A stretch of DNA of 64,000 bases, taken from the NCBI GenBank assembly GCA_046292875.1, contig JBKBQD010000008.1, positions 17,567 through 81,566 on the forward strand, written 5' to 3'. Source of the DNA: Fimbriimonadaceae bacterium. GTDB lineage: Bacteria > Armatimonadota > Fimbriimonadia > Fimbriimonadales > Fimbriimonadaceae. Position 1 is the first letter of the stretch. Each line of letters begins with the position of its first letter. Shown piece after piece: positions 9,734 through 48,564 of this stretch. A program made the position numbers and the translations under genes. The notes under the pieces were generated by a model, which was not told the origin of the DNA, did no database searches, and was given only the letters and a program-made list of their open reading frames with translations.

Positions 9734-9758
9734 GCCGTCATTCTATCGCGACCTCTGC

Positions 9759-10688: not shown

Positions 10689-10752
10689 TGCGGCGCATAT
10701 TATCCCGGTATTCCGTTAATGGCGCGTTCCTTGCATCGGCCAAAATCTCGGT

Positions 10753-11490
10753 ATGTGGTCTCGGATCGGAACGACGGCGGCACTGACCGCGTTTTCGGCA
10801 TTGGCTCTGGGCGCGGATTCCACTTCGGATAGCCGAAAGTGGGTGCTTTTTTATGACTTTTATGGCGATGCGCAATGGAGCCGCCTGACTGGCCTTGGCA
10901 CGGCGCAGCTTCTGCGTGGGGGCTATCGCAGTGGCGACCAAGAGGTCTTCCTCTTTCTCCGCAATGAGTACTACGACTCTTCCGGCTCCGACCAGCCCTT
11001 CAGCTTCGCTTCGCGCGGCACGTCCCTGTCGGTGGGGGCGCGGCAATGGCTGCCAGGCCGCAAGTGGTTCGTCCAGGGCACGGTGGGCCGCTACATCGCG
11101 GGCGCGAACCGCGACAAGAACGACATTCGCATCGGCGTCGCCGGATTCGACGAGTGGCGCCACAAGAACAACATCACCGACATGTACGCCGAGGCGTTCT
11201 GGGTCGACGTCGCTGACGATGCGCTGGGCTACCTGCGCGTCCGCAGCGGCCCGGTGCTGAGTTCGACGCCCACGAGCCGCCTCTGGGCCTATGGCGTCGG
11301 CCACCTCTATGCCACCGCAAACGGCAAGAACGGCACGGAGAACCGCGTCGAGGCCGGGATCGGGCTTGGACAACTGCTGGATAACCGGGCCTGGATCATT
11401 GGGGAACTGCGCGTTGGCTACATCTACCGCGGCACCGCCGACAAGCGCACCTACTTTAATCCGGTGATTCTGATCGCCGTCAGCTTCTAG
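10753..11490 (+). CDS. hypothetical secreted protein, possible outer-membrane beta-barrel
   Basis: It has a signal peptide (TAALTAFSALALGA), alternating Gly/aromatic-rich segments and a C-terminal aromatic residue (..IAVSF). Confidence 0.4.
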   Translation: MWSRIGTTAALTAFSALALGADSTSDSRKWVLFYDFYGDAQWSRLTGLGTAQLLRGGYRSGDQEVFLFLRNEYYDSSGSDQPFSFASRGTSLSVGARQWLPGRKWFVQGTVGRYIAGANRDKNDIRIGVAGFDEWRHKNNITDMYAEAFWVDVADDALGYLRVRSGPVLSSTPTSRLWAYGVGHLYATANGKNGTENRVEAGIGLGQLLDNRAWIIGELRVGYIYRGTADKRTYFNPVILIAVSF

Positions 11491-12497
11491 ACCACGCGAA
11501 TCGCCGGGCCGTCGCTTGACCACGGCCCGACGACGCGGCCGATGCAGACCGCACCCGGAACGGGCTCAGCGCTGAAGAGCGCGAGTCCGCCACTGGTTTG
11601 CGGGTCGACCGCCAGAACTCGGCGCCAGTCGGGCACATCTTGGGCGAATATCAGGTGCTCGCCAAGGTATTCGCGGTTTCTGCCGGCCCCGCCAGCGACC
11701 GCGTCGAGCGCAATGAGCCGCTCGACTCCTGGCAGCACGGGCCACGCCGCCGAATCGAGCACCAGGCTCACGCCTGAGCCACGTGCAACATTGAAGAGGT
11801 GTCCCGCAAGACCAAATCCCGTCACATCGGTGGCGCACCGGACGCCGGCTGCCAATCCAGCTTCGCATGCCTCGCGGTTCAGTTGGCTCATCACCGCGAT
11901 CGCCCCCTCCAATTCCGCGTCGGTGGCCAGGCCAAACTTGGCTCCCGTCGTGATCACGCCCGTGCCCAAGGGTTTGGTGAGCCAAATGCGATCTTCGGAA
12001 CGAGCCGCAGTGTTGACGAAAGCCCGATCCGGGTCCACGAGGCCCGTGACCGCGACCCCAAACTTGGGCTGTGGGTCCTCGACGCTGTGCCCACCGAGCA
12101 CCACCGCGCCGGCTTCCGCCGTCTTGTCGCGGGCGCCGAGGAGAATCGCGGCCCAGACCTCAGGCGGCGCCGCCTCGGGATCGAAACAGGCGATGTTCAG
12201 CGCCGTTAGCGGTCGACCTCCCATGGCGTAGACGTCGCTGATCGCGTTGGCCGCTGCAATGGCCCCAAAGGCATAAGGGTCGTCCACGATCGGTGGAAAA
12301 AAGTCCACGGTTTGGACGAGCACCTCTCCCGACGGAAGGCGGTATAGCCCTGCGTCGTCGGAGGTCTCAAACCCGACGAGAACGTTCGGGTCCACCTCGG
12401 CGGGGAGGCGCGACAGCACTTCGCGCAATTGGCCGGGGCGGAGCTTTGCCGCGCACCCCGCACAGGCCACCATTTGCGTCAAGCGCACTTCAGCCAT
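11487..12497 (-). CDS. selD: selenide, water dikinase (selenophosphate synthetase), Cys-type
   Basis: 336 aa. The N-terminal LTQMVACAGCAAKL aligns with the SelD GCGCK active-site loop, with Cys and Lys retained and no in-frame TGA. The rest has an AIR-synthase-like fold signature. The ATG overlaps the upstream stop (TGATG). Confidence 0.8.
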   Translation of the reverse strand: MAEVRLTQMVACAGCAAKLRPGQLREVLSRLPAEVDPNVLVGFETSDDAGLYRLPSGEVLVQTVDFFPPIVDDPYAFGAIAAANAISDVYAMGGRPLTALNIACFDPEAAPPEVWAAILLGARDKTAEAGAVVLGGHSVEDPQPKFGVAVTGLVDPDRAFVNTAARSEDRIWLTKPLGTGVITTGAKFGLATDAELEGAIAVMSQLNREACEAGLAAGVRCATDVTGFGLAGHLFNVARGSGVSLVLDSAAWPVLPGVERLIALDAVAGGAGRNREYLGEHLIFAQDVPDWRRVLAVDPQTSGGLALFSAEPVPGAVCIGRVVGPWSSDGPAIRVV

Positions 12498-13654
12498 CAG
12501 GTCGTGAGCCAGCTCTTCCAGTAGTCTGGGTCCTCAATGGCCAGGGACTCCTGCGTCATCTTCAGCGGATGGAAGGTGTCCAGCATGACGGCAAGCTCCT
12601 CCGTCTGTTTCGCCCCGATACTGCGCTCGACAGCGCCCGGCTGCGGCCCGTGGGGGATTCCCAGCGGATGCAGCGTGATGGACCCCTCCTCGATGCCGCG
12701 CCGCGACCCGAACTTGTCATTGCAGTAGTACAGGACCTCGTCCGAATCGACGTTCGAGTGGTTGTAGGGAATGACGATCGCGTCGGGATGGAAGTCCAGC
12801 ATGCGGGGGCAGAACGAGCAGATCACGAAGTTGTGCCCTTGGAAGGTTTGATGGATCGGTGGCGGCATGTGGAGCTTGCCGACGATTGGCTGAAAGTCGT
12901 TGATGTTGAAAGCATAGGGGAAGACGTAACCGTCCCAGCCCACGATGTCGAAGGGATGGTAGGGATACGTATAGGTGGTGTGGCGGTTCCTTGCCCGGAT
13001 CACGACCTTGTAGGCGCCGCGCTCATTGAACGTGACAAGTTCGCTGGGCGGCCGAAAGTCACGCTCTTTGAATGGCGCGTGTTCCAGCAGCTGCCCGTAC
13101 TCGTTGCGATAGCGCCGCGGCACCTCCACTGGACCGAAGCTCAGAATAACCAAGACTCGGACGGGAAGCGCATCAAATCGTATGCGCCAGATGGTCCCGC
13201 GCGGGATCACAAGATAGTCCCCTTCGCGAAACGGAATCGAGCCAAACATCGACTCCAGCACCCCGCTCCCGTCGTGGACGAAGAGCACTTCGTCGCCGTC
13301 AGCATTTTTGTAGAAGTGCGGCATTTGGTCGGCGACATGGGCAAACACCATGTGCGTGTCGCTGTTCCCCATGAGGGTAATGCGTCCGGTGATGAGGTCG
13401 CCCCGAGGCGGAATCTGCGCGGTCTTCAGGTGGCGATGCCGCAGGGGCTCGTCCTCAAGAAAGGTCGGCGCGACGCTGGGCCCGGCCTCCCATGCCGAAA
13501 CTTCGGTCGGCATGTGGATGTGGTACATCGTCGACATGGGGCCGCTGAAACCCCGCGTGCTGAACAATTGCTCCGTGTAGAGCCCACCATCGGGCTTGCG
13601 GAACTGGATATGGTGCTTGTGGGGCAGATCCCCCAATCGGACGTATCGCGGCAT
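12497..13654 (-). CDS. hmgA: homogentisate 1,2-dioxygenase-like cupin dioxygenase
   Basis: 385 aa. The motifs YTEQLFSTRGFSGPMSTMYH and HPLGIPHGPQPG are typical of the HgmA family. Confidence 0.7.
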   Translation of the reverse strand: MPRYVRLGDLPHKHHIQFRKPDGGLYTEQLFSTRGFSGPMSTMYHIHMPTEVSAWEAGPSVAPTFLEDEPLRHRHLKTAQIPPRGDLITGRITLMGNSDTHMVFAHVADQMPHFYKNADGDEVLFVHDGSGVLESMFGSIPFREGDYLVIPRGTIWRIRFDALPVRVLVILSFGPVEVPRRYRNEYGQLLEHAPFKERDFRPPSELVTFNERGAYKVVIRARNRHTTYTYPYHPFDIVGWDGYVFPYAFNINDFQPIVGKLHMPPPIHQTFQGHNFVICSFCPRMLDFHPDAIVIPYNHSNVDSDEVLYYCNDKFGSRRGIEEGSITLHPLGIPHGPQPGAVERSIGAKQTEELAVMLDTFHPLKMTQESLAIEDPDYWKSWLTT

Positions 13655-13683
13655 TTGTCCCCAATTCTACTGGGGTCGCGATT

Positions 13684-14082
13684 CTAATGGGCGAAGAGCG
13701 CCGTGAAGACTTCGGCGTCGAAGGGCTTCGTGAGGTAATGATTCGCGCCTGCCTCAAGGGCCTGGCGCACATCCGCTTCCTCGGTGGCCGTGGTCAGCAC
13801 CACAATCGTGCATGCCTCGGAATCCGCCCGCTCGCGAACGCGCCGAATGACGTCGAAACCATCTTGGAAAGGGAGGACCAAATCGACGATCAGGATGTCG
13901 GGCGGACAGGCTTCTGCTTTGGCGATCGCGTCCTCGCCATTGTCAGAGGTCTCCACGTCATATCCCAAACGCTGGAGATTGACCTCGACCAGGCGCAGAA
14001 TGTGCGGCTCATCGTCACAAACAAGGACTCGGCGGCCCTTGCCCGGGGACTCGGCGGTGGGTGCGATCATCGGGGGTTCCAT
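13684..14082 (-). CDS. single-domain response regulator (CheY-like receiver)
   Basis: 132 aa with VLVCDDEP, ILIVDLVLP (phospho-acceptor Asp) and YLTKPF. Confidence 0.85.
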   Translation of the reverse strand: MEPPMIAPTAESPGKGRRVLVCDDEPHILRLVEVNLQRLGYDVETSDNGEDAIAKAEACPPDILIVDLVLPFQDGFDVIRRVRERADSEACTIVVLTTATEEADVRQALEAGANHYLTKPFDAEVFTALFAH

Positions 14083-18656: not shown

Positions 18657-18732
18657 TGGAGCCGACGACCGGATTCGAACCGGTGACCTGCTGTTTACGA
18701 AACAGCTGCTCTACCGCTGAGCTACGTCGGCT
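18657..18732 (-). tRNA. tRNA-Thr (anticodon CGT), CCA encoded
   Basis: The reverse complement folds as AGCCGAC..GTAGCTCAGCGGTAGAGC..GCTGT-TTCGTAA-ACAGC..ACCGGTTCGAATCCGGT..CGTCGGCTCCA. Confidence 0.9.
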
Positions 18733-18734
18733 CG

Positions 18735-18809
18735 TGGAGCCCCCGACGAGAATTGAACTCGTGACCTTTCCCTTACCAAGGGAATGCTCTACCTCTGAGC
18801 TACGAGGGC
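18735..18809 (-). tRNA. tRNA-Thr (anticodon GGT), CCA encoded
   Basis: The reverse complement is GCCCTCGTAGCTCAGAGGTAGAGCA-TTCCC-TTGGTAA-GGGAA..ACGAGTTCAATTCTCGT-CGGGGGCTCCA. It lies 2 nt from the neighbouring tRNA-Thr. Confidence 0.9.
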
Positions 18810-18878
18810 GGGCCGGTCGCAAAGGATACCCGCCAGAGCGCGTTTTTCGGCGTGGACATGCTACACTTATCGTCGCCT

Positions 18879-18964
18879 GCGCGGGTGGTGAAATTGGTAG
18901 ACACGCTACCTTGAGGTGGTAGTGCCCACAAGGCGTGAAGGTTCGAGTCCTTTCCCGCGCACCA
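18879..18964 (+). tRNA. tRNA-Leu (anticodon GAG), long variable arm, CCA encoded
   Basis: GCGCGGG..GTGAAATTGGTAGACAC..CTACC-TTGAGGT-GGTAG, variable arm TGCCCACAAGGCG, T-arm GAAGGTTCGAGTCCTTT, then CCCGCGCACCA. Confidence 0.9.
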
Positions 18965-35152: not shown

Positions 35153-36663
35153 ATGGCGACTGGCGGTTCTGCGACCCCGGCTTGGATTGCGATCTTTGGC
35201 GCGACCGGCGACCTGGCTCACCGAAAGCTGATTCCAGCGCTCTTCAATCTCTTTCTTGATCGGCGGCTGCCCAAGCGGCTCCGCATCTGTGGTGTCGGGC
35301 GTCGAGGCGATCGCGCGTGGATGGTGGAGTCGATGCGCGAGGCGGTCATCCAGCACTCGCGACGCGGCGCGCCCGACGATGTCGCATGGTCCAAGTTCGT
35401 CGAAAGCTTTGACTACATCACCGGCCCTTTCGACGCGGCCTCGACCTACGAGGAGATTGGGCGCCACATTGCCGCCTCGGAAAAAGAGTGGGGGGAGAGC
35501 GCGGTGCGCATCTATTACCTCTCCACGCCACCGGACCTCATCGAGCCGATCATTCATGGGCTCGGCGACGTGGGATTGGCGGAAGACGCCAAGCGGGACC
35601 GCGTCGTGATCGAGAAACCGTTTGGACATGATTTGGCCTCCGCTGAATCGCTCAACCGGGTCGTGTCGAGCGTCTTCGATGAGCCTCAGGTGTATCGCAT
35701 CGACCACTACCTGGGCAAAGAGACGGTGCAAAACATCCTGGCTTTTCGCTTTGGCAATGCCCTTTGGGAGCCCATCTGGAACCGCCGCTATGTGGACCAC
35801 GTGCAGATCACCGTCGACGAGGATGGGGGCGTTGGGAGCCGCGGCGGATACTACGAAGACGCAGGCGCCCGCGCGACATGCTGCAGAACCATCTCCTCCA
35901 ACTGCTCTGCATGGTCGCCATGGAGCCGCCCGTGTCGTTCCGAGCAGAGGAGGTCCGCAACCGCAAGGTGGACGTCCTCAAGGCGGTGCGTCCGATTCCG
36001 CCTGCTGAGATTGGCCGCTACGCCGTCCGCGGTCAGTATGGCCCCGGCTGGGTCCGCGGCGAGCGAGTCCCGGGCTACCGCCAAGAGCAGGGCGTCGATC
36101 CAAAGTCAACGACCGAGACCTATGCCGCCATGAAGCTGCAGATTGACAATTGGCGCTGGCAGGATGTCCCCTTCTATCTGCGCACCGGCAAGCGCATGGC
36201 AGCCAAGGTGAGCAGCATTTCCATCCAGTTCAAGCCGGCCCCGCTGCAGCTGTTTCCGTCGGTTTCCGCCGAAGCCTGGGAACCGAATCGTCTGGTCATG
36301 GAGCTTCAGCCCAAAGAGGAGATCACCCTGCGGTTCCAAGCCAAGCGTCCCGGGCGAGGGATGACGCTGGAGACGGTTGGCCTCAGTTTTTGCTACGCCG
36401 AGTCGTTCAAGGTGCAGCCGCCAGAGGCATACGAAACTTTGCTCGCCGACGTGATCGCCGGAGATGGCACCCTCTTCATGCGGGCCGACCAAGAGACCGA
36501 AGCCTGGAAGATCGTCTCGCCGGTACTCGAGGCATGGGCCGAACATCCCCCCAGCGACTTTCCTAACTACCCCGCGGGATCGTGGGGTCCCGAAGCAGGC
36601 GAGGCGCTCATCGCGCGGGACGGTCGGGCATGGCATGCCCTTCTGCAGGAGGAGGAGCGGTGA
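35153..36663 (+). pseudogene. zwf: glucose-6-phosphate dehydrogenase, reading frame broken by an apparent 1-nt deletion near 35870
   Basis: The N-terminal ORF (35153-) carries [12 protein letters not shown] and RIDHYLGKE. The C-terminal part (to 36663), in another frame, carries [10 protein letters not shown]. The junction GYYEDAGA|xRDMLQNH has only 2 nt (35870-35871) where one codon is expected. Confidence 0.85.
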
Positions 36664-37379: not shown

Positions 37380-37715
37380 CGCCCTCTCAACGCCGGGCGG
37401 GCGACACTCGTTACGTTCGCGATCGGCTATTGGCTGTTCCGCTCTCCCTCGCTCTTACCTCTTTTCCGAACGTGGAGATGGAGGGTAATGCGGGAAGGCG
37501 GTTGAGCGGGAGTCAGGCACAGGCACCGCATCAAAGTCCATGTCGCGGACGTGTTCTTGCGACAAACGATCGAACTCAAGGAGGTTGAGGAAAACACCTG
37601 TCGGACGTCCTTCGCGCACTCCCGCTAGGGCTGCATCGACCTCGAAGACAGATCGCTTCCACCCTTCAGAGCCTTTAAAGCGTGACCCATACGTCCGGAA
37701 TGGACAGTCAAGAGG

Positions 37716-37762
37716 TGGTGGGCGGTACAGGACTTGAACCTGTGACCCCTACAGTGTCATTG
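37716..37762 (-). repeat. orphan 47-nt copy of the 3' end of tRNA-Val(GAC); distal att-type direct repeat
   Basis: TGGTGGGCGGTACAGGACTTGAACCTGTGACCCCTACAGTGTCATTG is identical base for base to 42518-42564. No 5' half of a tRNA follows it. Confidence 0.9.
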
Positions 37763-37940: not shown

Positions 37941-38552
37941 TCAATAAACGAAGCCCCCGCCGTCGACTCCATTCTCGGTTGAGTAATTGTTTGCGCTGCC
38001 ACTGATTGCCGCCTCCAGGGCGGGCCACAGATAGTCGTTTCGGCCCCAAGATGGATCAACAATCTCGACAGACCAGCACGTCGCCAGATCGCGGCTGACG
38101 CTTGGGTGAAGTGCTTCATAGTCTTCAATACCGAAGCCCCCGCCCAGCCAAAGGCAAGGCTCCTTATTCTCGTTCACGCAGCCCACAAGCCGCAAGTAAC
38201 GGGGGTCCATCACGGGCCAGACAAAGGTGATCAAGTCGTATTCAAGCCCAAGACAGTAGAGTCGCATGGCAAGGTTCTCCCGCGCTGCGCCCGAGACGAA
38301 CGCTCGCTGTTTCCAAGATTCTCCGGTATCTCCAGGCTGCGAACAGTCCGTTAGGAACCCCGCTCTGTTCGCCTTTGCCAATAGGGCAGCCAGACCGCCA
38401 GTCTCGTCGTCGATGGCGGTCTGAGTGAAACCATCGATTTTGCCCTCGAGAAACTGAGCAGTCAGTTCACAAAGGTCATCGAAGGATCGGACGTTCTCCC
38501 ACGGTGTGCCTTCGAAGTCGTACACGGTTGACATTCTATTCTGGTCCGACAA
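37941..38552 (-). CDS. hypothetical protein, DUF6919-like (recognised from memory only)
   Basis: 203 aa. The segment FDDLCELTAQFLEGKI...DDETGGLAALLAKANRAGFLTDCSQPG resembles a family of unknown function seen mainly in actinobacteria. It is divergent from the TIR-APAZ gene. Confidence 0.55.
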   Translation of the reverse strand: MSDQNRMSTVYDFEGTPWENVRSFDDLCELTAQFLEGKIDGFTQTAIDDETGGLAALLAKANRAGFLTDCSQPGDTGESWKQRAFVSGAARENLAMRLYCLGLEYDLITFVWPVMDPRYLRLVGCVNENKEPCLWLGGGFGIEDYEALHPSVSRDLATCWSVEIVDPSWGRNDYLWPALEAAISGSANNYSTENGVDGGGFVY

Positions 38553-38690
38553 CTCTTGTTGGAGGCAAGTCGCGAAATTGAAGCAGAATGATCGTAAGAG
38601 ATGTATAGCTGCGCCTCCAGGAAATCTGGCACGGTGACGTGGTAGTTACCAAGCTTGTCGTGCAGCAAATTGGGTAAACACTAGTGCGCC

Positions 38691-40013
38691 ATGATCTTCG
38701 TAAGTCATGCCAATCCAGAGGACAATCGCATCGCGCTGTGGCTCGCGACTAAGCTTGCAGCTGAAGGCTTTCCCGTGTGGTGCGATCTTATCGACCTAAT
38801 CGGGGGTGAGACCTTCTGGGGGGATATTGAAGACGCTATCAAGAACCACGCCGAGAAGGTTATCGTGCTGTTGTCGACATCTTCGGGCAAGCCCGGAGTC
38901 AAAGACGAGATAAATTGTGCAATTCAACGAGAGAGGCGCGAAAACCTCAAGGACTTCGTTATCCCGTGTCGAGTCGATGATGTAGCGTTCGATTCCAATA
39001 TCCAGATAGCTCGAAAGAACATCATAGATTGCCACGGCTTGGGCTGGGCTGAGACGCTTCGTCGAGTGCTCGCAAAGCTCGAAAAGGATGGGGTTGCAAA
39101 AGATCCCAAGGTGAACCCATCTTTGATCAATTCGGCGTGGAGTGCGCTCTTCCCGGCAGGCAGCGGTGTGACCGATGATCCTGAGCTCTATGACACGAAT
39201 CGGATTGCTATCAAGACCTTACCGAAGACGTTGTGGGCAAACGACGCCGGCGCCCCTGGAGCGGACGATTTTTTCCCCGTCACGGCTTCAGTTTTTGAAG
39301 GACGCCGGCTGAGCTTTCAAGCACGAAATCCACGAGCTTCCCTCTTCGGTAGAGACCCTGAGTTCATGCAACCGATGAACATCGAACTCGACGATTTCAT
39401 ACAAGGAGGTTGGGATGAGCTCGGGGTGGATTCGCGACGTGCGCGGCATGTGGTGGTGGAGTTACTCAGCAAATCATGGAGTCGATACCTTAGGGGTCGA
39501 AATCTAGAACCGTACGACTTATCCGGCTTTCGATCGATATTCTATTTTCACAAAGAGAATCTTCCAGCCGGCGAGGTCATAACCCAACTCCCGGAAAGAC
39601 CAGCGCGTCCTCGGAGCCTGTGGGGTGAGCATACAGTGCCCCGTAGCGCTAGACGCGAGAGTAGGTTCTATCACTTGGCTTGGGAGGGGCGGGTCGACGA
39701 TGATAATGGTTGGCATCTAATGTTGCTGCCGCACATCGTATGGACGTCCGATGCCCTTCGCGCTACATATGAAAAAGATGAGCAGCATCGGCTGAGGCGC
39801 AGGCAATGCAAGGGCTGGTGGAATGACCGATGGCGCGGTTTTCTCTACGCCACCCTCACCTGGGCAGCGGAGGGAAAGGAAACAATTGAGATTCCGGTCG
39901 GGGATCGTCAGACTATGACACTCGCCAATGCACCTTCGCGACTGCTCTCACCAGTGACACACGCCCGAGTCCAAGGAGTGCTGGAGGATGACGGCGAAAA
40001 CGCCGATGAGTGA
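38691..40013 (+). CDS. TIR-APAZ protein (SPARTA NADase effector subunit)
   Basis: 440 aa. The N-terminal TIR-like signature is MIFVSHANPEDNRIALWLATKLAAEGFPVWCD...EKVIVLLSTSS...VKDEINCA. About 300 aa follow with no enzymatic motif (APAZ-like). The stop overlaps the start of the downstream short pAgo. Confidence 0.85.
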   Translation: MIFVSHANPEDNRIALWLATKLAAEGFPVWCDLIDLIGGETFWGDIEDAIKNHAEKVIVLLSTSSGKPGVKDEINCAIQRERRENLKDFVIPCRVDDVAFDSNIQIARKNIIDCHGLGWAETLRRVLAKLEKDGVAKDPKVNPSLINSAWSALFPAGSGVTDDPELYDTNRIAIKTLPKTLWANDAGAPGADDFFPVTASVFEGRRLSFQARNPRASLFGRDPEFMQPMNIELDDFIQGGWDELGVDSRRARHVVVELLSKSWSRYLRGRNLEPYDLSGFRSIFYFHKENLPAGEVITQLPERPARPRSLWGEHTVPRSARRESRFYHLAWEGRVDDDNGWHLMLLPHIVWTSDALRATYEKDEQHRLRRRQCKGWWNDRWRGFLYATLTWAAEGKETIEIPVGDRQTMTLANAPSRLLSPVTHARVQGVLEDDGENADE

Positions 40014-41508
40014 CCTAATCTACATTCGGGAGCCTCGGTTGCTTTTCGCTCATGGCCAAGCGATGGAACACCCACGCGACGGGTTGGCCCTCTTTGGGCC
40101 ATACAAACAGGCGAAAGGGGGCATCCGGATTGGTTACGCTGGCCCCCATTCAGGGCTCAGGGTTGTGGAGAAGTTCCTGACCCGATTATCAAAACCGGTC
40201 AAGGTAGCAAAGGAGAAGGAACTGCGCGTCCCATTTCCAGGATTTGAAGCGGTCTTTGGGTGCCCGCTAGCGTCCGAACCGGTGGCGGCCGCGATTGTCA
40301 ATGATCAGAACCTCCTGAGCACCCTCACTATCAAGGAGCCGCACCAGCGCGTGCATAGCGCAGTGGGTCTCTATGTTGACGCCATACTGCATTGGATCAA
40401 CTCCAATGACGTCACTCCTGATCTCTGGATCGTGTTCGTCATTCCCGAAGTATTCAAGCACTGTCGACCGCTACAGGCAAGGCTTCGCTTGGATGATGCC
40501 GAAGTCCCTTTCTCGATCACCGCCAAACAAGCGCGGCTGTATTGCCAGGCTCCCTCCTTGTTTGAAGAAGATATGGTGCCGATGGCCGCGTTTGAATACG
40601 AACCCGACTTTCATAGCCAAATCAAGTTCCGCCTGCTAAAGGATCGAGTGGTAACTCAATTGTTGCGCGAGGAGACTACCCATCTTCTGCTCGACTACAA
40701 CTTCGATTCCTCTAAGCCGTCCGAGCAAACGCAAGCGAACGACTTGTCGTGGCGATTCTCGACCGCAATATACTACAAAGTACATGGAGCTCCGTGGAAG
40801 CTCGCAAATCTCCGATCCGGAGTGTGTTATCTCGGCTTAGTCTTCAAGAAAGCTCAAGGCAATGATGAACGGGCAGCCTGCTGCGCAGCACAGATGTTTC
40901 TTGATTCTGGGGACGGCGTTGTCTTCCGCGGCGCTGTCGGGCCTTGGTACAACCCCAAGCGACGTCAGTTTCACCTCACAACTGAAGCCGCATCAGAACT
41001 GTGCGCCCTCGCGGTGAATGCCTACGAAGAGGATTTCAAGCGACGTCCCAATGAACTCTTCATCCACGGCCGATCAGGATTCAACGACGAAGAGTGGGCT
41101 GGGTTCTTAGAAGGGGCTAAAGGTGTCGGCCATGTCGGAGCAGTGCGAATCAAAGACGCAGCCAAACTGCGGCTTTATGCCAATGGTTTACTAACCCCTC
41201 TTCGGGGATTGGCCTGGCAATCGGGCGAGCGGTCGGCAGCCCTGCTTACCCACGGGTTCGTTCCAAGGACCCAAACTTACGCAGGCAGCGAGGTCCCGGT
41301 CCCATTAGGTGTAGACGTCCTGCGGGGCGATTCATGCCTGCAAACTGTACTGTCGGATGTCTTGTCCCTCACCAAACTGAACTACAACTCCTGCAATTTC
41401 GGAGACGGATCTCCCGTGACATTGCGATTTGCAGACAACATTGGCGAGATACTTACTGCAGGAAAACAGCAGCACATTCCACCGTTGCCCTTTAAGCACT
41501 ACATCTGA
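40006..41508 (+). CDS. short prokaryotic Argonaute (MID-PIWI only), SPARTA sensor subunit
   Basis: About 500 aa. The N-terminus MSDLIYIREPRLLFAHGQ..RDGLALFGPY and the C-terminus PVTLRFADNIGEILTAG..PPLPFKHYI-stop match what I recall of SPARTA-type short pAgos. It is too short for N/PAZ domains. An alternative ATG lies at 39988. Confidence 0.85.
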   Translation: MSDLIYIREPRLLFAHGQAMEHPRDGLALFGPYKQAKGGIRIGYAGPHSGLRVVEKFLTRLSKPVKVAKEKELRVPFPGFEAVFGCPLASEPVAAAIVNDQNLLSTLTIKEPHQRVHSAVGLYVDAILHWINSNDVTPDLWIVFVIPEVFKHCRPLQARLRLDDAEVPFSITAKQARLYCQAPSLFEEDMVPMAAFEYEPDFHSQIKFRLLKDRVVTQLLREETTHLLLDYNFDSSKPSEQTQANDLSWRFSTAIYYKVHGAPWKLANLRSGVCYLGLVFKKAQGNDERAACCAAQMFLDSGDGVVFRGAVGPWYNPKRRQFHLTTEAASELCALAVNAYEEDFKRRPNELFIHGRSGFNDEEWAGFLEGAKGVGHVGAVRIKDAAKLRLYANGLLTPLRGLAWQSGERSAALLTHGFVPRTQTYAGSEVPVPLGVDVLRGDSCLQTVLSDVLSLTKLNYNSCNFGDGSPVTLRFADNIGEILTAGKQQHIPPLPFKHYI

Positions 41509-41642: not shown

Positions 41643-42191
41643 ATGAACGCTGGCCCGCGAGAGGAGTCTAAAACTGCGGTAATCACGAGGGGCTACTGGG
41701 GTGAACAAGTAATGTCCTTGGTTCCAGATTCCGCAATGCCACTTTCTACAGAGGAATCTGAGTCGATCTCAATTGGATTTCCGGTTCCGTCCGAGAACCA
41801 GCCGACTCACCTAGATGACCATATATGCTACCACAATTCGAGGCAATTTGTGCTGAGTTATCCCGAAGAATTGTGGTATGTGGACGGATTTGCGGGCCTA
41901 GACATAGGCCCAACCAGTGGGCCCGATGGCAACCGCTATCCGACATACGATCTTGGGTTGCACGCCTGGTGTGTAAACAAATTGGCTCTGGTCGTTGACC
42001 CTTCCTGGAACCCTGACGGCAACTATTACATGGGGATTGCCATTCGTCGTCAGCTCGTCCGAGAACATCTGGACAGCAAGAACCAAAGAGGGGCAGTCCA
42101 TCAGAGCTATCTCAATGAATGGCACGAACTAACCAAAGAGGAGCGCTTGGCTATGAAGCAGGAACTCAAGGATTGGTGCGGAGCCACGTAA
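41643..42191 (+). CDS. hypothetical protein (islet cargo)
   Basis: 182 aa (or from M24 at 41712). I recognise no family. It contains LHAWCVNKLALVVDPSWNPDGNYY, which echoes a motif in the 37941-38552 protein. Confidence 0.45.
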   Translation: MNAGPREESKTAVITRGYWGEQVMSLVPDSAMPLSTEESESISIGFPVPSENQPTHLDDHICYHNSRQFVLSYPEELWYVDGFAGLDIGPTSGPDGNRYPTYDLGLHAWCVNKLALVVDPSWNPDGNYYMGIAIRRQLVREHLDSKNQRGAVHQSYLNEWHELTKEERLAMKQELKDWCGAT

Positions 42192-42239: not shown

Positions 42240-42517
42240 ATTCCGATATATAGTCGGTCCAAAGCCGTTCGCGGGAAAAAGCATTACGCCTGCCTCGTCG
42301 AAGATCTCCGCGACAGCTTCGCCACGAACCACGTCCGAATGGGAACGGACATCAAGTCGATTTCCGAAATGATGGGCCACCACAAGCCCTCCTACACGCT
42401 GGACAAGTACGTCAAGACGGACGAGGCGACGATCCGGGCCGCGCAGGACAAGTTGACGGATAAGCTACACGAGGCGCGCACGGCGGAGCCGGAGTGGCTC
42501 CCCGCAGGTTCAAAAGA
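42240..42517 (+). pseudogene. tyrosine recombinase (phage-type integrase) C-terminal remnant
   Basis: The in-frame translation ..RGKKHYACLVEDLRDSFATNHVRMGTDIKSISEMMGHHKPSYTLDKYV.. matches the integrase box II region (HDLRHTFAT...LGH....T...Y). The first His is replaced (E-D-L-R-D) and no upstream catalytic domain remains; there is a stop at 42189. Confidence 0.65.
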
Positions 42518-42592
42518 TGGTGGGCGGTACAGGACTTGAACCTGTGACCCCTACAGTGTCATTGTAGTGCTCTACCACTGAGCTAACCGCCC
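42518..42592 (-). tRNA. tRNA-Val (anticodon GAC), CCA encoded; integration target
   Basis: The reverse complement is GGGCGGTTAGCTCAGTGGTAGAGCA-CTACA-ATGACAC-TGTAG-GGGTC-ACAGGTTCAAGTCCTGT-ACCGCCCACCA. Its 3' 47 nt are the proximal direct repeat. Confidence 0.9.
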
Positions 42593-42669: not shown

Positions 42670-42745
42670 GGCCTCGTAGCTCAGTGGATAGAGCGCCTCC
42701 GTCCTAAGGAGGGCGTCGGGGGTTCGATTCCCTCCGAGGCCGCCA
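42670..42745 (+). tRNA. tRNA-Arg (anticodon CCT), CCA encoded
   Basis: GGCCTCGTAGCTCAGTGGATAGAGCG-CCTCC-GTCCTAA-GGAGG-GCGTC-GGGGGTTCGATTCCCTC-CGAGGCCGCCA. Confidence 0.9.
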
Positions 42746-42794
42746 CGACGCGAGATTCGACCGCTGAGGCGGTCAGACCCATCAAGCCAAGGGC

Positions 42795-43262
42795 ATGTCC
42801 TCCAAATTTCTCATCACTGGCATGTCCGGTACCGGCAAGTCGTCGGTGATTGCCGAGCTTCGCCGCCGCGGGTTCCGGGCCATGGATGCTGATGATGGAT
42901 TTTCAGAATCAGGTCCGGAGGGGGACTGGGTGTGGATTGAACCCAAAGTCGCACAGCTTCTTGCTGATCCGCATGGCGGCACCCTCTTTTTTTCGGGGTG
43001 CGCGTCGAATCAAGGCCGTTTTTACGACGACTTTGATCAAGTGATTTTGCTCGTTGCGCCGGTGGAAGTGCTTTTGTCCAGGTTGGAACAACGTCAAACC
43101 AACCACTTTGGCAAGACTGATGCAGAGCGCGCTCGAATCCTCGTCGACCTGGAAACGTTTGAGCCAGTGTTGCGCAGGACATCGGACGTGATCATCGAAA
43201 CATCGGTTCCGCTTGCTGAAGTCGTGGACCAAATACTGTTGTCCGCCGGACTGTCTGAGTGA
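42795..43262 (+). CDS. P-loop NTPase (small AAA/kinase-like ATP-binding protein)
   Basis: 155 aa with Walker A ITGMSGTGKSS at the N-terminus. The size and layout resemble shikimate/adenylate-kinase-like proteins. Confidence 0.6.
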   Translation: MSSKFLITGMSGTGKSSVIAELRRRGFRAMDADDGFSESGPEGDWVWIEPKVAQLLADPHGGTLFFSGCASNQGRFYDDFDQVILLVAPVEVLLSRLEQRQTNHFGKTDAERARILVDLETFEPVLRRTSDVIIETSVPLAEVVDQILLSAGLSE

Positions 43263-43489
43263 CCAGATGTCTTCCAATGAAGTAGCTGAGGCTGGTCGAT
43301 CCATCTCGATGCTCTCTTGTGGCCACTGGATTCCGTGAGGCATTTTGCGATACCTATAGACTTAACCCATTCTTTACCTACCTTTCATCCAACCGAACAG
43401 AGACGTCGGGAGGGAGGCGACACCTTCCGAGGTTGCCTGGCGTTTCCTGAAGCAGGACGTCATCGAGCGGCATGCAAGCCAGAACCCAC

Positions 43490-43966
43490 TCAGTACATCG
43501 CTTTGTCGCCGTACAGTGTCTGGATGAACGCCAGTTGACCCAAGTGATACGTCGTGTTCCAGTACGGAAACGACATCAAATCGGCCATGGATTGGGGTAA
43601 GTCATTGGCAAAGGTAAGGCGAATCTCCAGGCCCAACTCGTCCTGGGGAAACGTGCGGACCAGCTCATAGAATCGGTCCAGGTTCTCTCTCAGCACTGCC
43701 TCGCATTTGTCGAAGGTATCCCAGCTCCCCATCAGGGCCGCGTCTGCCGCCATGCGCTGCTCGTCGTATTCCATGCACGCCCGTGCCGCAAGCATTTCGA
43801 TGGCCCAGGTCGGAGCCATGGCGATCTCCTGCATCAGGGCCAAAGGCGTGCGTCCGACGCCCAGCACACTCCAGGTCCGTTTGTCTTCGGGGGTGTGGCG
43901 CATGTAGGCAAGAAAGGTCTGGTGGGCCTCTTCCGTCAGGCGAATCATTTGGTCGGTATAGAGCAT
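43490..43966 (-). CDS. DinB-family protein
   Basis: 158 aa. The C-terminal YHLGQLAFIQTLYG matches the DinB-fold HxGQ motif. Confidence 0.55.
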   Translation of the reverse strand: MLYTDQMIRLTEEAHQTFLAYMRHTPEDKRTWSVLGVGRTPLALMQEIAMAPTWAIEMLAARACMEYDEQRMAADAALMGSWDTFDKCEAVLRENLDRFYELVRTFPQDELGLEIRLTFANDLPQSMADLMSFPYWNTTYHLGQLAFIQTLYGDKAMY

Positions 43967-46755: not shown

Positions 46756-47384
46756 TCAAGCGACAGTTCGCGAAACTGCACTTCGACCCAGCGCATCACC
46801 TCTTCCGGGGTGGCAGCTGGGTCGAACTTTTTGGGCTCTCCCCAAATGCACTGCACCGTGCGAAAGGCGGGTCTGGGGATCACTTTGCCGTACGGAATCA
46901 CCCGTTCTGAGTTCCTAAAGGACGCGCAGAGGATCGGCACATCGGCCATGCGCGCGATGAGCGCCGCGCCAGGCTTCAGGGGGAGAGGCTCACCGCCGAT
47001 GCGCACCCGCCCTTCGGGAAAGACTACCACGGGGTAGCCCTGCTTGAGGTACCAGACGGCCTGACGAAGCGAGGCGCGATCCGGCGCATCGGGGTCAACC
47101 GGAAACGCGCCCAGCTGTGGGATCAGCCGGCCCAGCCAACCCATCGAAAACAGGTCGCGCTTGGCCATGAAGAAGAGCGGGCGAGGCGACCCATATTGAA
47201 TCAGGACCGGGTCAAAGTCGCTCGGATGGGTCGCCAAGATGAGCACGCCGCCCTTGCGCGGTACGCGATACGCTCCCACCACCTTGAGCGGACCGAGAAT
47301 GAAAAACAGCGGCCACAGCAAGACCCTCAGCACGGGAAGTCCATATGGCGCATACCACCGGGCGTGAAGCGGGTACTCAGCCAT
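46752..47384 (-). CDS. plsC: 1-acyl-sn-glycerol-3-phosphate (lysophospholipid) acyltransferase
   Basis: 210 aa with the HxxxxD motif (THPSDFDP) and the FPEGRV motif. Confidence 0.8.
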   Translation of the reverse strand: MAEYPLHARWYAPYGLPVLRVLLWPLFFILGPLKVVGAYRVPRKGGVLILATHPSDFDPVLIQYGSPRPLFFMAKRDLFSMGWLGRLIPQLGAFPVDPDAPDRASLRQAVWYLKQGYPVVVFPEGRVRIGGEPLPLKPGAALIARMADVPILCASFRNSERVIPYGKVIPRPAFRTVQCIWGEPKKFDPAATPEEVMRWVEVQFRELSLD

Positions 47385-48564
47385 GTGCGGCCTCGATCAG
47401 CCGCTGAAGCGCCGCCGGATACAGGCGATGCTCCAGTTCAAGCACTCGCGCGGCCAGCGTTTCGGGGGTGTCGGTCGGGAGGACGGGGCATCGCTCTTGA
47501 AGGACGATCGGCCCTTCGTCATACTCGGGCGTCACGAGGTGGACGGTCGCTCCCGACTCGGCCTCTCCCGCGGCCAGGACCGCTTCGTGGACGTGGCGCC
47601 CGTACATCCCTTTGCCGCCGAACTTGGGCAGCAGCGCCGGATGGATGTTCAGAACATGGCCCGCGTAGGCGTCGAGCACTTCCACCGGCAGAAGTCGGGT
47701 GAAGCCAGCCAAGCAGACCCATGACACGTTTTCCGCGCGGAGAACCTGCAGCAGGCGCGCGCCGTAGTCCTCGCCCGGTGCGACCACCGCCACCGGCGTT
47801 CCCGAAGCACGTGCGAACGTGGCGGCCGGTGAATCGCCCACGGGCGAGATGACCACCGCGACCTGCGCCTCCAACTCGCCCGAGGTAGACGCCTGGATGA
47901 GGGCGCGCATGTTGCTTCCCCTGCCTTTCGGCCCGACCAGAATGGCGACCTTGGGCCGGACAAGGCGGGAAAGAATGGCATTCAGGGCCTCGTGGGCCAC
48001 TGCCTCCGGCGCGTTCGCCGCGTTCAGCACCGTCCACTTCAGCGGGTCTGCCGCTGCCTCGGCCCGGAAACCCTCGCGCACGCGGTGATGAAACTCGAGC
48101 GACTCCGCGTCGATCCGGTCGCGCTGCTCCAAACGCGCCAATCCTTCCTCGCTCGACAGATCGAAGAGGAGCTTCAGGTCTGGGGTCAGCCCACCGGTAG
48201 CCGTAGCGTTCAGCTGCCGCAGCCAGTCAAGATCCCATCCGCGCCCATAGCCCTGATAGGCGAGAGTGCTGTCGGCAAATCGATCGCAGAGCACGACGGT
48301 GCCGCCGAGCAGCGCGGGTCGGATGATCGTCGCGACATGCTGGGCTCGGTCGGCCAGAAAGAGAAAGAGTTCGGCCGACGGTTCGACCTCGCCGCCCTCA
48401 AGCAGCAGCGCGCGCACCTTTGCCCCGAACGCCCCGGCCCCCGGCTCGCGGGTGGTGAGCACCTCGTGACCGCGCGAGCGCAACTCGGCGGCAAGCGTCG
48501 CGACGGCGGTGGACTTCCCTGCACCCTCCGGGCCCTCGAACGTCACGAAGAGGCCACGCGCCAT
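47377..48564 (-). CDS. fusion protein: dTMP kinase (N-terminal) + phosphoribosylglycinamide formyltransferase (C-terminal)
   Basis: This is a single 395-aa ORF. Residues 1 to about 200 are Tmk (FVTFEGPEGAGKST, DRFADS). Residues from about 205 to 395 are PurN (KVAILVG..GSN, NIHPALLPKFGG, VTPEYDEGPIV). Confidence 0.8.
   Translation of the reverse strand: MARGLFVTFEGPEGAGKSTAVATLAAELRSRGHEVLTTREPGAGAFGAKVRALLLEGGEVEPSAELFLFLADRAQHVATIIRPALLGGTVVLCDRFADSTLAYQGYGRGWDLDWLRQLNATATGGLTPDLKLLFDLSSEEGLARLEQRDRIDAESLEFHHRVREGFRAEAAADPLKWTVLNAANAPEAVAHEALNAILSRLVRPKVAILVGPKGRGSNMRALIQASTSGELEAQVAVVISPVGDSPAATFARASGTPVAVVAPGEDYGARLLQVLRAENVSWVCLAGFTRLLPVEVLDAYAGHVLNIHPALLPKFGGKGMYGRHVHEAVLAAGEAESGATVHLVTPEYDEGPIVLQERCPVLPTDTPETLAARVLELEHRLYPAALQRLIEAAHG

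What the first reader, a model, noticed from the sequence alone, without database searches (positions are those of the whole stretch)
38691..41508. SPARTA-type defence operon: TIR-APAZ NADase plus short (MID-PIWI) Argonaute
Seen in sequence:
- The two same-strand genes are translationally coupled; the stop of gene 1 overlaps the ATG of gene 2 within ATGAGTGA at 40006-40013.
- Gene 1 (440 aa) opens with a TIR-like signature: MIFVSHANPEDNRIALWLATKLAAEGFPVWCD, EKVIVLLSTSS, VKDEINCA. By my count the candidate catalytic Glu is residue 73.
- About 300 aa follow in gene 1 with no enzymatic motif, consistent with an APAZ domain.
- Gene 2 (about 500 aa) has the N-terminus LIYIREPRLLFAHGQ..RDGLALFGPY and ends ..PVTLRFADNIGEILTAG..PPLPFKHYI-stop. 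I recognise both ends from short prokaryotic Argonautes.
- 500 aa leaves no room for N and PAZ domains.
- FHSQIKFRLLK is a candidate MID 5'-phosphate pocket.

Established knowledge: the TIR-APAZ + short pAgo pairing defines SPARTA systems. In these, guide-RNA-directed recognition of invader ssDNA drives oligomerisation and TIR-mediated NAD(P)+ hydrolysis, an abortive-infection-like response and plasmid loss.

Inference:
- Both ORFs are intact, so this copy is probably functional.
- It is the only clear defence system in the window.
- It sits on a minimal tRNA islet with two unknown neighbours, apparently in a lineage that is not among the experimentally studied hosts.
Basis: partly seen in the sequence, partly recalled or inferred. 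Interest (0 to 1): 0.9.

Follow-up and report, generated by a model that had tools for sequence, protein, structure and literature searches.

The report
SPARTA defence operon on tRNA-Val island
This is an intact but ordinary copy of the already well-studied SPARTA anti-plasmid defence system (a TIR-APAZ NAD-destroying enzyme paired with a short Argonaute), carried on a small decayed genomic island next to a tRNA-Val gene in an uncultured Fimbriimonadaceae bacterium.

Summary
Two overlapping same-strand genes (38691-40013, 440 aa; 40006-41508, 500 aa) encode a TIR-APAZ protein and a short MID-PIWI Argonaute.

- **Family match:** both match PADLOC SPARTA models (E 1.9e-100 and 5e-173). Both align end to end with the solved Map/Crt/Bab SPARTA structures (E 2e-40 and 1.5e-125).
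- **Key residues present:** TIR catalytic Glu (E73) and NAD-stacking aromatics; TIR interface residues W43/K51/R108; MID 5'-phosphate pocket H203/K207/Q218/K258; RNA-guide contacts R221/T224; pAgo dimerisation residues; C-terminal Ile; acidic TIR-APAZ tail.
- **No nuclease site:** the PIWI DEDX positions read V279/F322/R356/D477.
- **Selection:** both genes are under strong purifying selection (dN/dS about 0.04-0.11).

New here: the operon lies in a 4.8-kb low-GC island. The island is bounded by 55-nt direct repeats of the tRNA-Val 3' half and carries an integrase stump. The two unknown neighbours never co-occur with SPARTA elsewhere, so they are cargo.

The family is very common: at least 595 loci in GTDB species representatives, across many phyla. 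This is a new member of a known kind, of low interest. Its only mild peculiarity is a very short (16 aa) autoinhibitory tail.

The parts
37708..37762 (.). Distal att-like direct repeat: a duplicated 3' half of tRNA-Val. 37716-37762 is 100% identical to 42518-42564. It marks the left edge of the island.
   Evidence: the repeat finder family D1: 55 nt, 96% identity, spacing 4802. Exact 47-nt match.
37941..38552 (-). DUF6919 gene (203 aa). Island cargo, not part of the SPARTA system.
   Evidence: Pfam DUF6919, E 5.1e-36. No PADLOC hit. Absent from all 83 other SPARTA loci. GC3 0.64.
38691..40013 (+). TIR-APAZ gene (440 aa), the NADase effector subunit.
   Evidence: PADLOC Aga_TIR-PNTD1-PNTD2, E 1.9e-100. 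PDB MapTIR-APAZ 8fex_A and Crt 8ifk_A, E about 2e-40, residues 2-435. The AF2 model's top 35 Foldseek hits are all SPARTA TIR-APAZ chains.
38694..39068 (+). TIR domain (aa 2-126). Holds catalytic E73 (nt 38907-38909), NAD-stacking F42 and F100, BB-loop W43, and tetramer-interface K51 and R108.
   Evidence: Pfam TIR_2, E 1.1e-18. Residue mapping to Map F45/E77/Y105/W46/R54/R114. Residue roles from PMC10355822 and PMC10899771.
39069..39962 (+). Linker plus APAZ domain (aa about 127-424). Retains N170, R370 and K374, equivalent to Map/Bab N174, R362 and K366.
   Evidence: Full-length alignment to solved TIR-APAZ chains. APAZ-only chains superpose at TMt 0.80-0.85, rmsd 3.0-3.6 A. Residues.
39963..40010 (+). 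Acidic C-terminal tail ARVQGVLEDDGENADE (aa 425-440; 6 of 16 Asp/Glu). Presumed autoinhibitory plug of the nucleic-acid cleft, and unusually short.
   Evidence: family median 42 aa; 2nd to 6th shortest of 83. Published range 16-46 aa and 21-45% acidic (PMC10899771).
40006..40013 (+). ATGAGTGA: 8-nt overlap of the pAgo start codon with the TIR-APAZ stop codon (translational coupling inferred).
   Evidence: The same geometry occurs in L001-L003. Overlaps of 1, 4 or 8 nt occur in 61 of 82 SPARTA loci.
40006..41508 (+). Short pAgo gene (500 aa; MID about aa 1-264, nt 40006-40797; PIWI about aa 265-500, nt 40798-41505). This is the guide-binding sensor subunit.
   Evidence: PADLOC pAgo_I, E 5e-173. 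PDB Crt 8ifk_B 1.5e-125, Map 8fex_B 1.1e-124, Bab 8qlo_B 2.7e-122, residues 1-500 vs 1-507. 5'-P pocket H203/K207/Q218/K258 and C-terminal I500. DEDX positions V279/F322/R356/D477.
41643..42191 (+). Unknown 182-aa ORF. Island cargo, not part of the system.
   Evidence: No significant Pfam, PADLOC or NCBIfam hit. Absent from all 83 other SPARTA loci. GC3 0.57.
42300..42425 (+). Tyrosine-integrase stump. Only the C-terminal catalytic-Tyr region survives (EDLRDSFATNHVRMGTDIKSISEMMGHHKPSYTLDKYVK).
   Evidence: Pfam Phage_integrase, E 8.8e-6, profile positions 130-170 of 172. Frame translation.
42518..42592 (-). tRNA-Val(GAC), the integration target. Its 3' half plus 8 nt (42510-42564) is the proximal att-like repeat.
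   Evidence: ARAGORN. The repeat finder D1.

Best explanation
The locus is a complete SPARTA (short prokaryotic Argonaute / TIR-APAZ, clade S2A) defence operon, acquired horizontally on a small tRNA-Val-integrated island that has since lost its integrase.

**Shown by sequence and fold**
- The upstream gene encodes a TIR domain with the catalytic Glu, then an APAZ domain, then a short acidic tail.
- The overlapping downstream gene encodes a MID-PIWI Argonaute. It has an intact 5'-phosphate/Mg2+ guide pocket and no nuclease tetrad.
- Both genes are under purifying selection.

**Inferred from the characterised Map, Crt and Bab systems**
1. The two proteins form a 1:1 heterodimer.
2. The pAgo loads 5'-phosphorylated small RNAs derived from transcripts.
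3. Pairing of the guide with complementary ssDNA of a highly transcribed, multicopy invader displaces the acidic tail and restructures the PIWI domain.
4. Heterodimers then dimerise through pAgo and tetramerise through their TIR domains, forming composite NADase sites.
5. These sites hydrolyse NAD(P)+ to ADPR(P) and nicotinamide.
6. NAD depletion stops growth or kills the cell, so the invader is lost from the population.
For: **Architecture**
- Two same-strand ORFs with an 8-nt stop/start overlap.

**Family matches**
- PADLOC Aga_TIR-PNTD1-PNTD2 1.9e-100 and pAgo_I 5e-173; Pfam TIR_2 1.1e-18.
- Full-length HMMER matches to solved SPARTA chains: TIR-APAZ 2e-40; pAgo 1.5e-125, 41-43% identity.
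- Much weaker matches to SPARHA (4e-45), SPARDA (about 1e-27) and SPARSA (3e-21) pAgos.
- AF2 model of TIR-APAZ (pLDDT 81.7): top 35 Foldseek hits are all SPARTA TIR-APAZ chains.

**Conserved residues**
- TIR: E73 (invariant in 121/121), F42, F100, W43, K51, R108.
- MID: H203, K207, Q218, K258, R221, T224, R154.
- pAgo dimer interface: D135, Y257, K497.
- C-terminal Y499-I500.
- APAZ: N170, R370, K374.
- DEDX positions read V/F/R/D (anchor from PMC11156904).
- Tail is 37.5% acidic.

**Selection and context**
- dN/dS 0.04-0.11 against three relatives.
- The same gene pair in the same order in 82 of 83 related loci.
- Island evidence: 55-nt repeats of the tRNA-Val 3' half, integrase stump, GC 0.52-0.57 vs 0.60-0.65, GC3 0.57-0.64 vs 0.72-0.85.

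**Mechanism**
- Taken from PMC9097488, PMC10899771, PMC10355822 and PMC11156904.
Against: - No experiment exists on this copy. Heterodimer formation, guide loading and NADase activity are all inferred.
- TIR-APAZ is only about 25% identical to MapTIR-APAZ.
- The autoinhibitory tail is half the usual length.
- Two basic MID residues that contact the tail in BabSPARTA (R243, H251) are not basic here: E240 or a gap, and D246. Regulation may therefore differ in detail.
- R54 of the TIR tetramer interface is Lys here.
- No promoter or terminator consensus stands out, so expression is unproven.
- dS is near saturation, so the dN/dS values are rough.
Confidence: 0.88

Rival explanations
1. The operon is a silent or decaying relic. 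It arrived on an island whose integrase is now destroyed, and it is no longer expressed or no longer active, even though the reading frames are still open.
For: - The integrase is reduced to about 40 residues.
- No recognisable sigma-70 promoter or terminator around the operon.
- The nearby zwf gene shows an apparent frameshift, so pseudogenes or assembly errors do occur in this contig.
Against: - Both ORFs are full length, with every catalytic and interface residue tested intact.
- pN is far below pS in all six pairwise comparisons for each gene, and dN/dS is 0.04-0.11 where measurable.
- Loss of an island's integrase is common and says nothing about its cargo.
Confidence: 0.06
2. The system is SPARTA-like in architecture but differs in output or input. 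For example, the short tail and altered MID surface could make it hypersensitive or differently gated. It could prefer DNA guides. Its TIR could make a signalling nucleotide instead of simply depleting NAD.
For: - The tail is 16 aa against a family median of 42.
- Tail-truncated Map/BabSPARTA are hyperactive and bind guide about 20-fold tighter (PMC10899771).
- The R243 and H251 equivalents are not basic.
- CrtSPARTA can also use DNA guides (PMC11851103 abstract).
- TIR-APAZ is only 25% identical to Map.
Against: - The RNA-guide 2'-OH contacts R221 and T224 and the whole 5'-P pocket are conserved.
- The tail length and acidity are still inside the published S2A/S2B range.
- The tail vs R243 covariation across 83 loci is weak and depends on the alignment.
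- No downstream effector gene that could sense a signal is conserved next to the operon.
Confidence: 0.05
3. It belongs to a different short-pAgo system type (SPARSA, SPARDA, SPARHA or an S2B system) or is a stand-alone TIR gene next to an unrelated Argonaute.
For: PADLOC also lists weaker hits to other pAgo and APAZ models, for example Aga_SIR2-PNTD1-PNTD2 at 3.8e-28.
Against: - The effector domain is TIR, not SIR2, DREN or HNH.
- The best PDB matches are SPARTA by a wide margin: 422 bits against 157 or less.
- Foldseek ranks 35 SPARTA chains ahead of any other system.
- The APAZ region is fused to the TIR domain in one ORF, and its stop overlaps the pAgo start.
Confidence: 0.01

Closest known systems
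MapSPARTA (Maribacter polysiphoniae), CrtSPARTA (Crenotalea/Thermoflavifilum thermophila) and BabSPARTA (Bacillales bacterium): the characterised clade S2A short pAgo/TIR-APAZ systems
   Same: - Gene order TIR-APAZ then pAgo on one strand.
- Protein sizes 440 + 500 aa against about 450 + 507 aa.
- Full-length collinear alignment.
- TIR catalytic Glu; MID H-K-Q-K 5'-phosphate pocket; RNA-guide contacts.
- pAgo dimer and TIR tetramer interface residues.
- C-terminal Ile that completes the Mg2+ site.
- Non-acidic residues at three of the four DEDX positions.
- Acidic TIR-APAZ C-terminal tail.
   Different: - Only 41-43% (pAgo) and about 25% (TIR-APAZ) identical.
- Tail of 16 aa instead of 34.
- The R243 and H251 equivalents are acidic or absent.
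- R54 is K51, Y105 is F100 and Y505 is H498. The last two are the majority residues of the family.
- Host is Armatimonadota rather than Bacteroidota or Bacillota.
Unnamed Fimbriimonadaceae-type SPARTA subclade (metagenomic loci L001, L002, L003)
   Same: - 76-87% amino-acid identity.
- Identical 440 + 500 aa lengths.
- The same ATG...TGA 8-nt overlap.
- The same 15-16 aa tail.
- tRNA-adjacent location: tRNA-Val in L001 and L003, tRNA-Glu in L002.
   Different: - DNA similarity stops exactly at the operon ends (38690-41508).
- Flanking genes are unrelated in each locus. L001 has a serine recombinase and an Mrr-like gene; L002 and L003 have housekeeping genes.
Other short pAgo systems: SPARSA (SIR2-APAZ), SPARDA (DREN-APAZ), SPARHA (HNH-APAZ)
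   Same: - Short MID-PIWI Argonaute plus an APAZ-fused effector.
- Activation by oligomerisation after guide-directed target binding.
- An abortive-infection-type outcome.
   Different: - The effector domain here is TIR.
- Sequence and fold similarity are much lower: pAgo E 4e-45 to 3e-21 against 1e-125; APAZ Foldseek E 4e-11 to 1e-7 against 1e-33.

Membership tests
SPARTA (clade S2A short pAgo system) | TIR-APAZ gene and short pAgo gene adjacent in one operon on the same strand | tested here: met
   38691-40013 and 40006-41508, both on the + strand, with an 8-nt overlap. The same arrangement occurs in 82 of 83 related loci.
SPARTA (clade S2A short pAgo system) | Argonaute is 'short': MID and PIWI only, with no N or PAZ domains | tested here: met
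   The 500 aa align 1-500 against 1-507 of the solved short pAgos 8ifk_B, 8fex_B and 8qlo_B. There is no room for extra domains.
SPARTA (clade S2A short pAgo system) | PIWI lacks the DEDX catalytic tetrad | tested here: met
   Positions equivalent to SPARTA V284/Y328/R362/N484 (CbAgo D541/E577/D611/D727 according to PMC11156904) are V279/F322/R356/D477. Only the fourth is acidic, as in Map and Bab.
SPARTA (clade S2A short pAgo system) | MID 5'-phosphate binding pocket and C-terminal carboxylate conserved | tested here: met
   H203, K207, Q218 and K258 match Map H207, K211, Q222 and K263 (PMC10355822). R221 and T224 match R225 and T228. The protein ends in Y499-I500.
SPARTA (clade S2A short pAgo system) | N-terminal TIR domain with the catalytic glutamate (Map/Crt E77) | tested here: met
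   Pfam TIR_2, E 1.1e-18, residues 2-126. E73 aligns with E77 and is invariant in 121/121 homologues. F42 and F100 align with F45 and Y105.
SPARTA (clade S2A short pAgo system) | APAZ domain fused C-terminally to the TIR domain | tested here: met
   PADLOC TIR-PNTD1-PNTD2 covers residues 2-436. HMMER match to solved TIR-APAZ over 2-435. The AF2 model superposes on APAZ-only chains at TMt 0.80-0.85.
SPARTA (clade S2A short pAgo system) | Acidic C-terminal tail on the APAZ protein (16-46 aa, 21-45% Asp/Glu) | tested here: met
   16 aa with 37.5% Asp/Glu. This is at the lower length limit reported in PMC10899771.
SPARTA (clade S2A short pAgo system) | Residues needed for pAgo-pAgo dimerisation and TIR-TIR tetramerisation | tested here: met
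   pAgo D135, Y257, K497 and H498 match D133, Y262, K504 and Y505; His is the commonest residue at that last position. TIR W43 and R108 are conserved, and R54 is the conservative K51.
SPARTA (clade S2A short pAgo system) | Closer to S2A pAgos than to those of other short-pAgo clades | tested here: met
   422 bits to SPARTA pAgos, against 157 (SPARHA 9om4), about 100 (SPARDA) and 78 (SPARSA 8in8) (chain identities). This is a proxy, since no tree was built.
SPARTA (clade S2A short pAgo system) | 1:1 heterodimer that tetramerises on guide-RNA/target-ssDNA binding and then hydrolyses NAD(P)+ | not testable with these tools
   Needs co-expression, SEC or cryo-EM and an epsilon-NAD assay. Only monomer structure prediction was available.
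tRNA-integrated genomic island | Direct repeats formed by duplication of the tRNA 3' end, an integrase next to the tRNA, and atypical composition | tested here: met
   55-nt repeats at 37708-37762 and 42510-42564, overlapping the 3' half of tRNA-Val. Integrase C-terminal stump at 42300-42425. GC and GC3 drop inside the island. The integrase is truncated, so the island is probably immobile.

The most novel reading that the evidence does not exclude
The Fimbriimonadaceae subclade (this window plus L001-L003) may be a naturally 'de-repressed' SPARTA variant. Its autoinhibitory tail is cut to 15-16 residues, and the MID residues that dock the tail in BabSPARTA (R243, H251) are replaced by acidic or absent residues. 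This could give tighter guide binding and a lower activation threshold than Map, Crt or Bab SPARTA. Such a variant might suit a slow-growing host and could be useful for SPARTA-based nucleic-acid detection.
Probability: 0.15. Interest if true: 0.35.

Novelty: new member of a known kind. Interest (0 to 1): 0.2.

Why it matters
It matters little for biology. SPARTA has been defined since 2022, more than 40 PDB entries cover it, and related pAgos occur in at least 595 species-representative genomes.

There are three practical points.
- The public annotation of this MAG calls the pAgo a 'hypothetical protein' and truncates it by 53 residues, because its start overlaps the upstream gene. Neither Pfam nor NCBIfam has a model that recognises it. 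SPARTA pAgos of this kind can therefore go unnamed by pipelines that rely on those libraries, although PADLOC finds them.
- The locus is a clean example of a two-gene defence module moving between tRNA-linked islands.
- The subclade's very short regulatory tail could be a natural test of the published tail-autoinhibition model.

Tried and rejected
- **Exact-sequence contig look-ups** for the window's pAgo and for P0001 found nothing on record.
- **A single-protein scan of genome contigs** found no close relative. The alignment-based rescan worked.
- **Pfam on the pAgo**, even at E <= 10, gave no Piwi hit, and NCBIfam gave none. This is a limit of the libraries and does not count against a PIWI domain.
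- **Promoter and terminator scans** gave counts no higher than shuffled sequence, so the operon's regulatory signals remain undefined.
- **DUF6919 and the 182-aa ORF as accessory components:** rejected. Neither occurs in any of 83 other SPARTA loci, and DNA similarity to the closest relatives ends at the operon borders.
- **A disrupted L003 orthologue** (called as 381 aa): rejected. It is an intact 500-aa ORF, so the short call is a gene-calling artefact.
- **Covariation between tail length and a basic residue at Map R243** across 83 loci: only a weak trend (median 27 vs 35 aa). The alignment is unstable in that loop and the loci are not phylogenetically independent.
- **The PADLOC hit PDC-M51B** on ORF 47377-48564 is just a thymidylate-kinase domain.
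- **Two paper-reading runs** failed on term syntax, and one Pfam call failed on a wrong frame.


Full report
**1. The observation**

The window holds two same-strand ORFs exactly as described. One is 38691-40013 (440 aa). The other ends at 41508. The first ORF's TGA (40011-40013) and an ATG at 40006 lie inside ATGAGTGA. A second in-frame ATG at 39988 would give 506 aa. The family N-terminus (MKELIYIEEP in the solved proteins; MxxLIxxPEP consensus) matches MSDLIYIREP from 40006.

**2. What the proteins are**

*Gene 1.*
- It has a Pfam TIR_2 domain at residues 2-126, E 1.1e-18.
- Over residues 2-436 it matches the PADLOC TIR-APAZ model Aga_TIR-PNTD1-PNTD2, E 1.9e-100.
- It aligns over 2-435 with the solved MapTIR-APAZ and CrtTIR-APAZ chains, E about 2e-40.

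*Gene 2.*
- It has no Pfam or NCBIfam hit at all.
- It matches PADLOC pAgo_I at 5e-173.
- It aligns end to end (1-500 vs 1-507) with the Crt, Map and Bab short pAgos: E 1.5e-125, 1.1e-124 and 2.7e-122, at 41-43% identity.
- The next-best solved pAgos score far lower. They belong to SPARHA, SPARDA and SPARSA: 157, about 100 and 78 bits, against 422.

*Fold check.* An AlphaFold2 model of gene 1 built from 59 family sequences has mean pLDDT 81.7. Its 35 best Foldseek PDB hits are all SPARTA TIR-APAZ chains, with E down to 8.6e-34. APAZ-only chains superpose at TMt 0.80-0.85 and rmsd 3.0-3.6 A.

**3. Residue-level tests**

I rebuilt the Map, Crt and Bab sequences from the printed HMMER alignments. 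I then aligned them with about 120 database homologues of each protein.

*TIR-APAZ:*

| Map residue | Here | Note |
|---|---|---|
| E77 | E73 | invariant in 121/121 |
| F45 | F42 | NAD stacking |
| Y105 | F100 | Phe is the family majority |
| W46 | W43 | BB loop, invariant |
| R54 | K51 | TIR tetramer interface |
| R114 | R108 | TIR tetramer interface |
| N174 | N170 | APAZ |
| R362 | R370 | APAZ |
| K366 | K374 | APAZ |

*pAgo:*

| Map residue | Here | Role |
|---|---|---|
| H207 / K211 / Q222 / K263 | H203 / K207 / Q218 / K258 | 5'-phosphate pocket |
| R225 / T228 | R221 / T224 | RNA-guide contacts |
| R152 | R154 | 5'-nucleotide contact |
| D133 / Y262 / K504 | D135 / Y257 / K497 | pAgo dimerisation |
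| Y505 | H498 | His is the commonest residue here |

The C-terminus is Y499-I500.

The roles of these residues come from PMC10355822 and PMC10899771.

*DEDX.* For the tetrad I used the structure-based statement in PMC11156904. There, SPARTA V284, Y328, R362 and N484 occupy the positions of CbAgo D541, E577, D611 and D727. Here they are V279, F322, R356 and D477. Three of the four acidic residues are missing, as in the whole family.

*Tail.* The TIR-APAZ C-terminal tail is ARVQGVLEDDGENADE: 16 aa, 37.5% acidic. That is inside the published 16-46 aa and 21-45% range. It is short against a median of 42 aa in my sample.

**4. Is it maintained?**

I compared the window with three orthologous pairs (L001-L003, 76-87% amino-acid identity). 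pN is 0.05-0.14 and pS is 0.40-0.85 in all comparisons for both genes. dN/dS is 0.04-0.11 where dS is not saturated. This argues against a decaying relic.

**5. Context**

- The window matches an NCBI Fimbriimonadaceae MAG (Armatimonadota). There the TIR-APAZ is named only 'TIR domain-containing protein'. The pAgo is a 'hypothetical protein' called 53 residues too short.
- A 55-nt direct repeat (37708-37762 and 42510-42564; 47 nt exact) duplicates the 3' half of tRNA-Val(GAC) at 42518-42592.
- Next to the tRNA lies a tyrosine-integrase stump: Pfam Phage_integrase, E 8.8e-6, covering only profile positions 130-170 of 172.
- Between the repeats GC is 0.52-0.57, against 0.60-0.65 outside. GC3 of the four enclosed genes is 0.57-0.64, against 0.72-0.85 for typical host genes.
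- The flanks are housekeeping genes: zwf, 6-phosphogluconolactonase, adenosine deaminase and a pyridine-nucleotide oxidoreductase.
- The operon is therefore cargo of a 4.8-kb tRNA-Val island that has lost its integrase.

*The neighbours are not part of the system.* DNA similarity to the closest relatives begins and ends at the operon (38690-41508). The two island neighbours (DUF6919, 37941-38552; an unknown 182-aa ORF, 41643-42191) occur in none of 83 other SPARTA loci.

*The relatives are also tRNA-linked:* tRNA-Val in L003 and at the contig end of L001, and tRNA-Glu in L002.

**6. How common it is**

- More than 4,100 database proteins match the pAgo at E <= 1e-10.
- These span Acidobacteriota, Planctomycetota, Verrucomicrobiota, Chloroflexota, Bacteroidota, Pseudomonadota, Bacillota and an Abditibacterium (Armatimonadota).
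- They include Thermoflavifilum thermophilum, the current name of Crenotalea thermophila, the CrtSPARTA source.
- In 82 of 83 fetched loci a TIR-APAZ gene sits directly upstream on the same strand. The one exception is cut by a contig end.
- Stop/start overlaps of 4, 8 or 1 nt account for 61 of 82 loci. The coupling geometry seen here is therefore the family norm.

**7. Mechanism**

*Shown:* domain architecture, catalytic and interface residues, absence of a nuclease site, and purifying selection.

*Inferred from the characterised systems* (PMC9097488, PMC10899771, PMC10355822, PMC11156904):
1. The two proteins form a heterodimer.
2. The pAgo loads 5'-P small RNA guides.
3. Recognition of complementary ssDNA from highly transcribed multicopy invaders displaces the acidic tail.
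4. Heterodimers dimerise through pAgo and tetramerise through their TIR domains.
5. NAD(P)+ is hydrolysed, followed by growth arrest or death.

**8. Rivals**

- *Silent relic (0.06):* contradicted by selection and intact residues.
- *Variant with altered gating, guide preference or product (0.05):* the only hints are the short tail and non-basic residues at the Bab R243 and H251 positions. The covariation test was weak.
- *Another short-pAgo type (0.01):* refuted by the TIR domain and the score gaps.

**9. Other claims**

PADLOC scans of 30 other large ORFs of the window found no other convincing defence component. The one notable hit is a thymidylate-kinase domain. This supports 'the only clear defence system in the window' for the ORFs tested.

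**10. Verdict**

Both the observation and the interpretation are correct. The finding is an ordinary, un-annotated member of a well-known and very widespread defence family in a lineage where it has not been studied. No paper in the library mentions both TIR-APAZ and Armatimonadota. Novelty: new member of a known kind. Interest: about 0.2.

Noticed in passing
window 35153-36663 (junction at about 35870): The glucose-6-phosphate dehydrogenase gene (zwf) is split into two overlapping ORFs in different frames. Frame 1 reads ...YYEDAGA up to 35869, and frame 2 resumes with [10 protein letters not shown] at 35872. That leaves 2 nt where one codon is expected, so this is an apparent 1-nt deletion. 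It is either an assembly error or a pseudogene.
   Followed up: partly
window 40006-41508; L003 7644-9146: Public gene calls truncate this pAgo: NCBI gives 447 aa and JGI gives 381 aa for the L003 orthologue. The full 500-aa frame is open, and its start overlaps the upstream stop. Neither Pfam nor NCBIfam has a model that recognises it, so it is labelled 'hypothetical protein'.
   Followed up: yes
L001 10503-10546; L002 6215-6291; L003 3772-3846: All three closest relatives of the operon also lie within 0.4-2.5 kb of a tRNA gene (tRNA-Val, tRNA-Glu, tRNA-Val), with otherwise unrelated flanks. This suggests that this SPARTA subclade travels on tRNA-targeting islands.
   Followed up: partly
L001 1-6000: Upstream of the L001 SPARTA operon lies a run of small unknown genes, an Mrr_cat-domain gene and a large serine recombinase (Resolvase, 541 aa). 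It looks like a larger mobile or defence island.
   Followed up: no
window 42670-43750: To the right of tRNA-Val lies a tRNA-Arg(CCT) at 42670-42745. It is followed by a second low-GC stretch (0.53-0.56) with an AAA_18 kinase-like ORF (42795-43262, GC3 0.60). This may be a second small islet at the neighbouring tRNA.
   Followed up: no
window 47377-48564 (-): A single 395-aa ORF combines a thymidylate kinase domain (residues 9-191) with a Formyl_trans_N domain (206-386), which is an unusual fusion. It produced a spurious PADLOC PDC-M51B hit.
   Followed up: partly
window 9618-13687: Several long ORFs here overlap each other and have low GC3 (0.55-0.63) compared with the host norm of 0.72-0.85. 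Either the wrong frames were picked by my crude ORF selection, or this is another foreign segment.
   Followed up: no
window 18657-18964: A tight tRNA cluster: tRNA-Thr(CGT) and tRNA-Thr(GGT) on the minus strand and tRNA-Leu(GAG) on the plus strand, all within about 300 bp.
   Followed up: no
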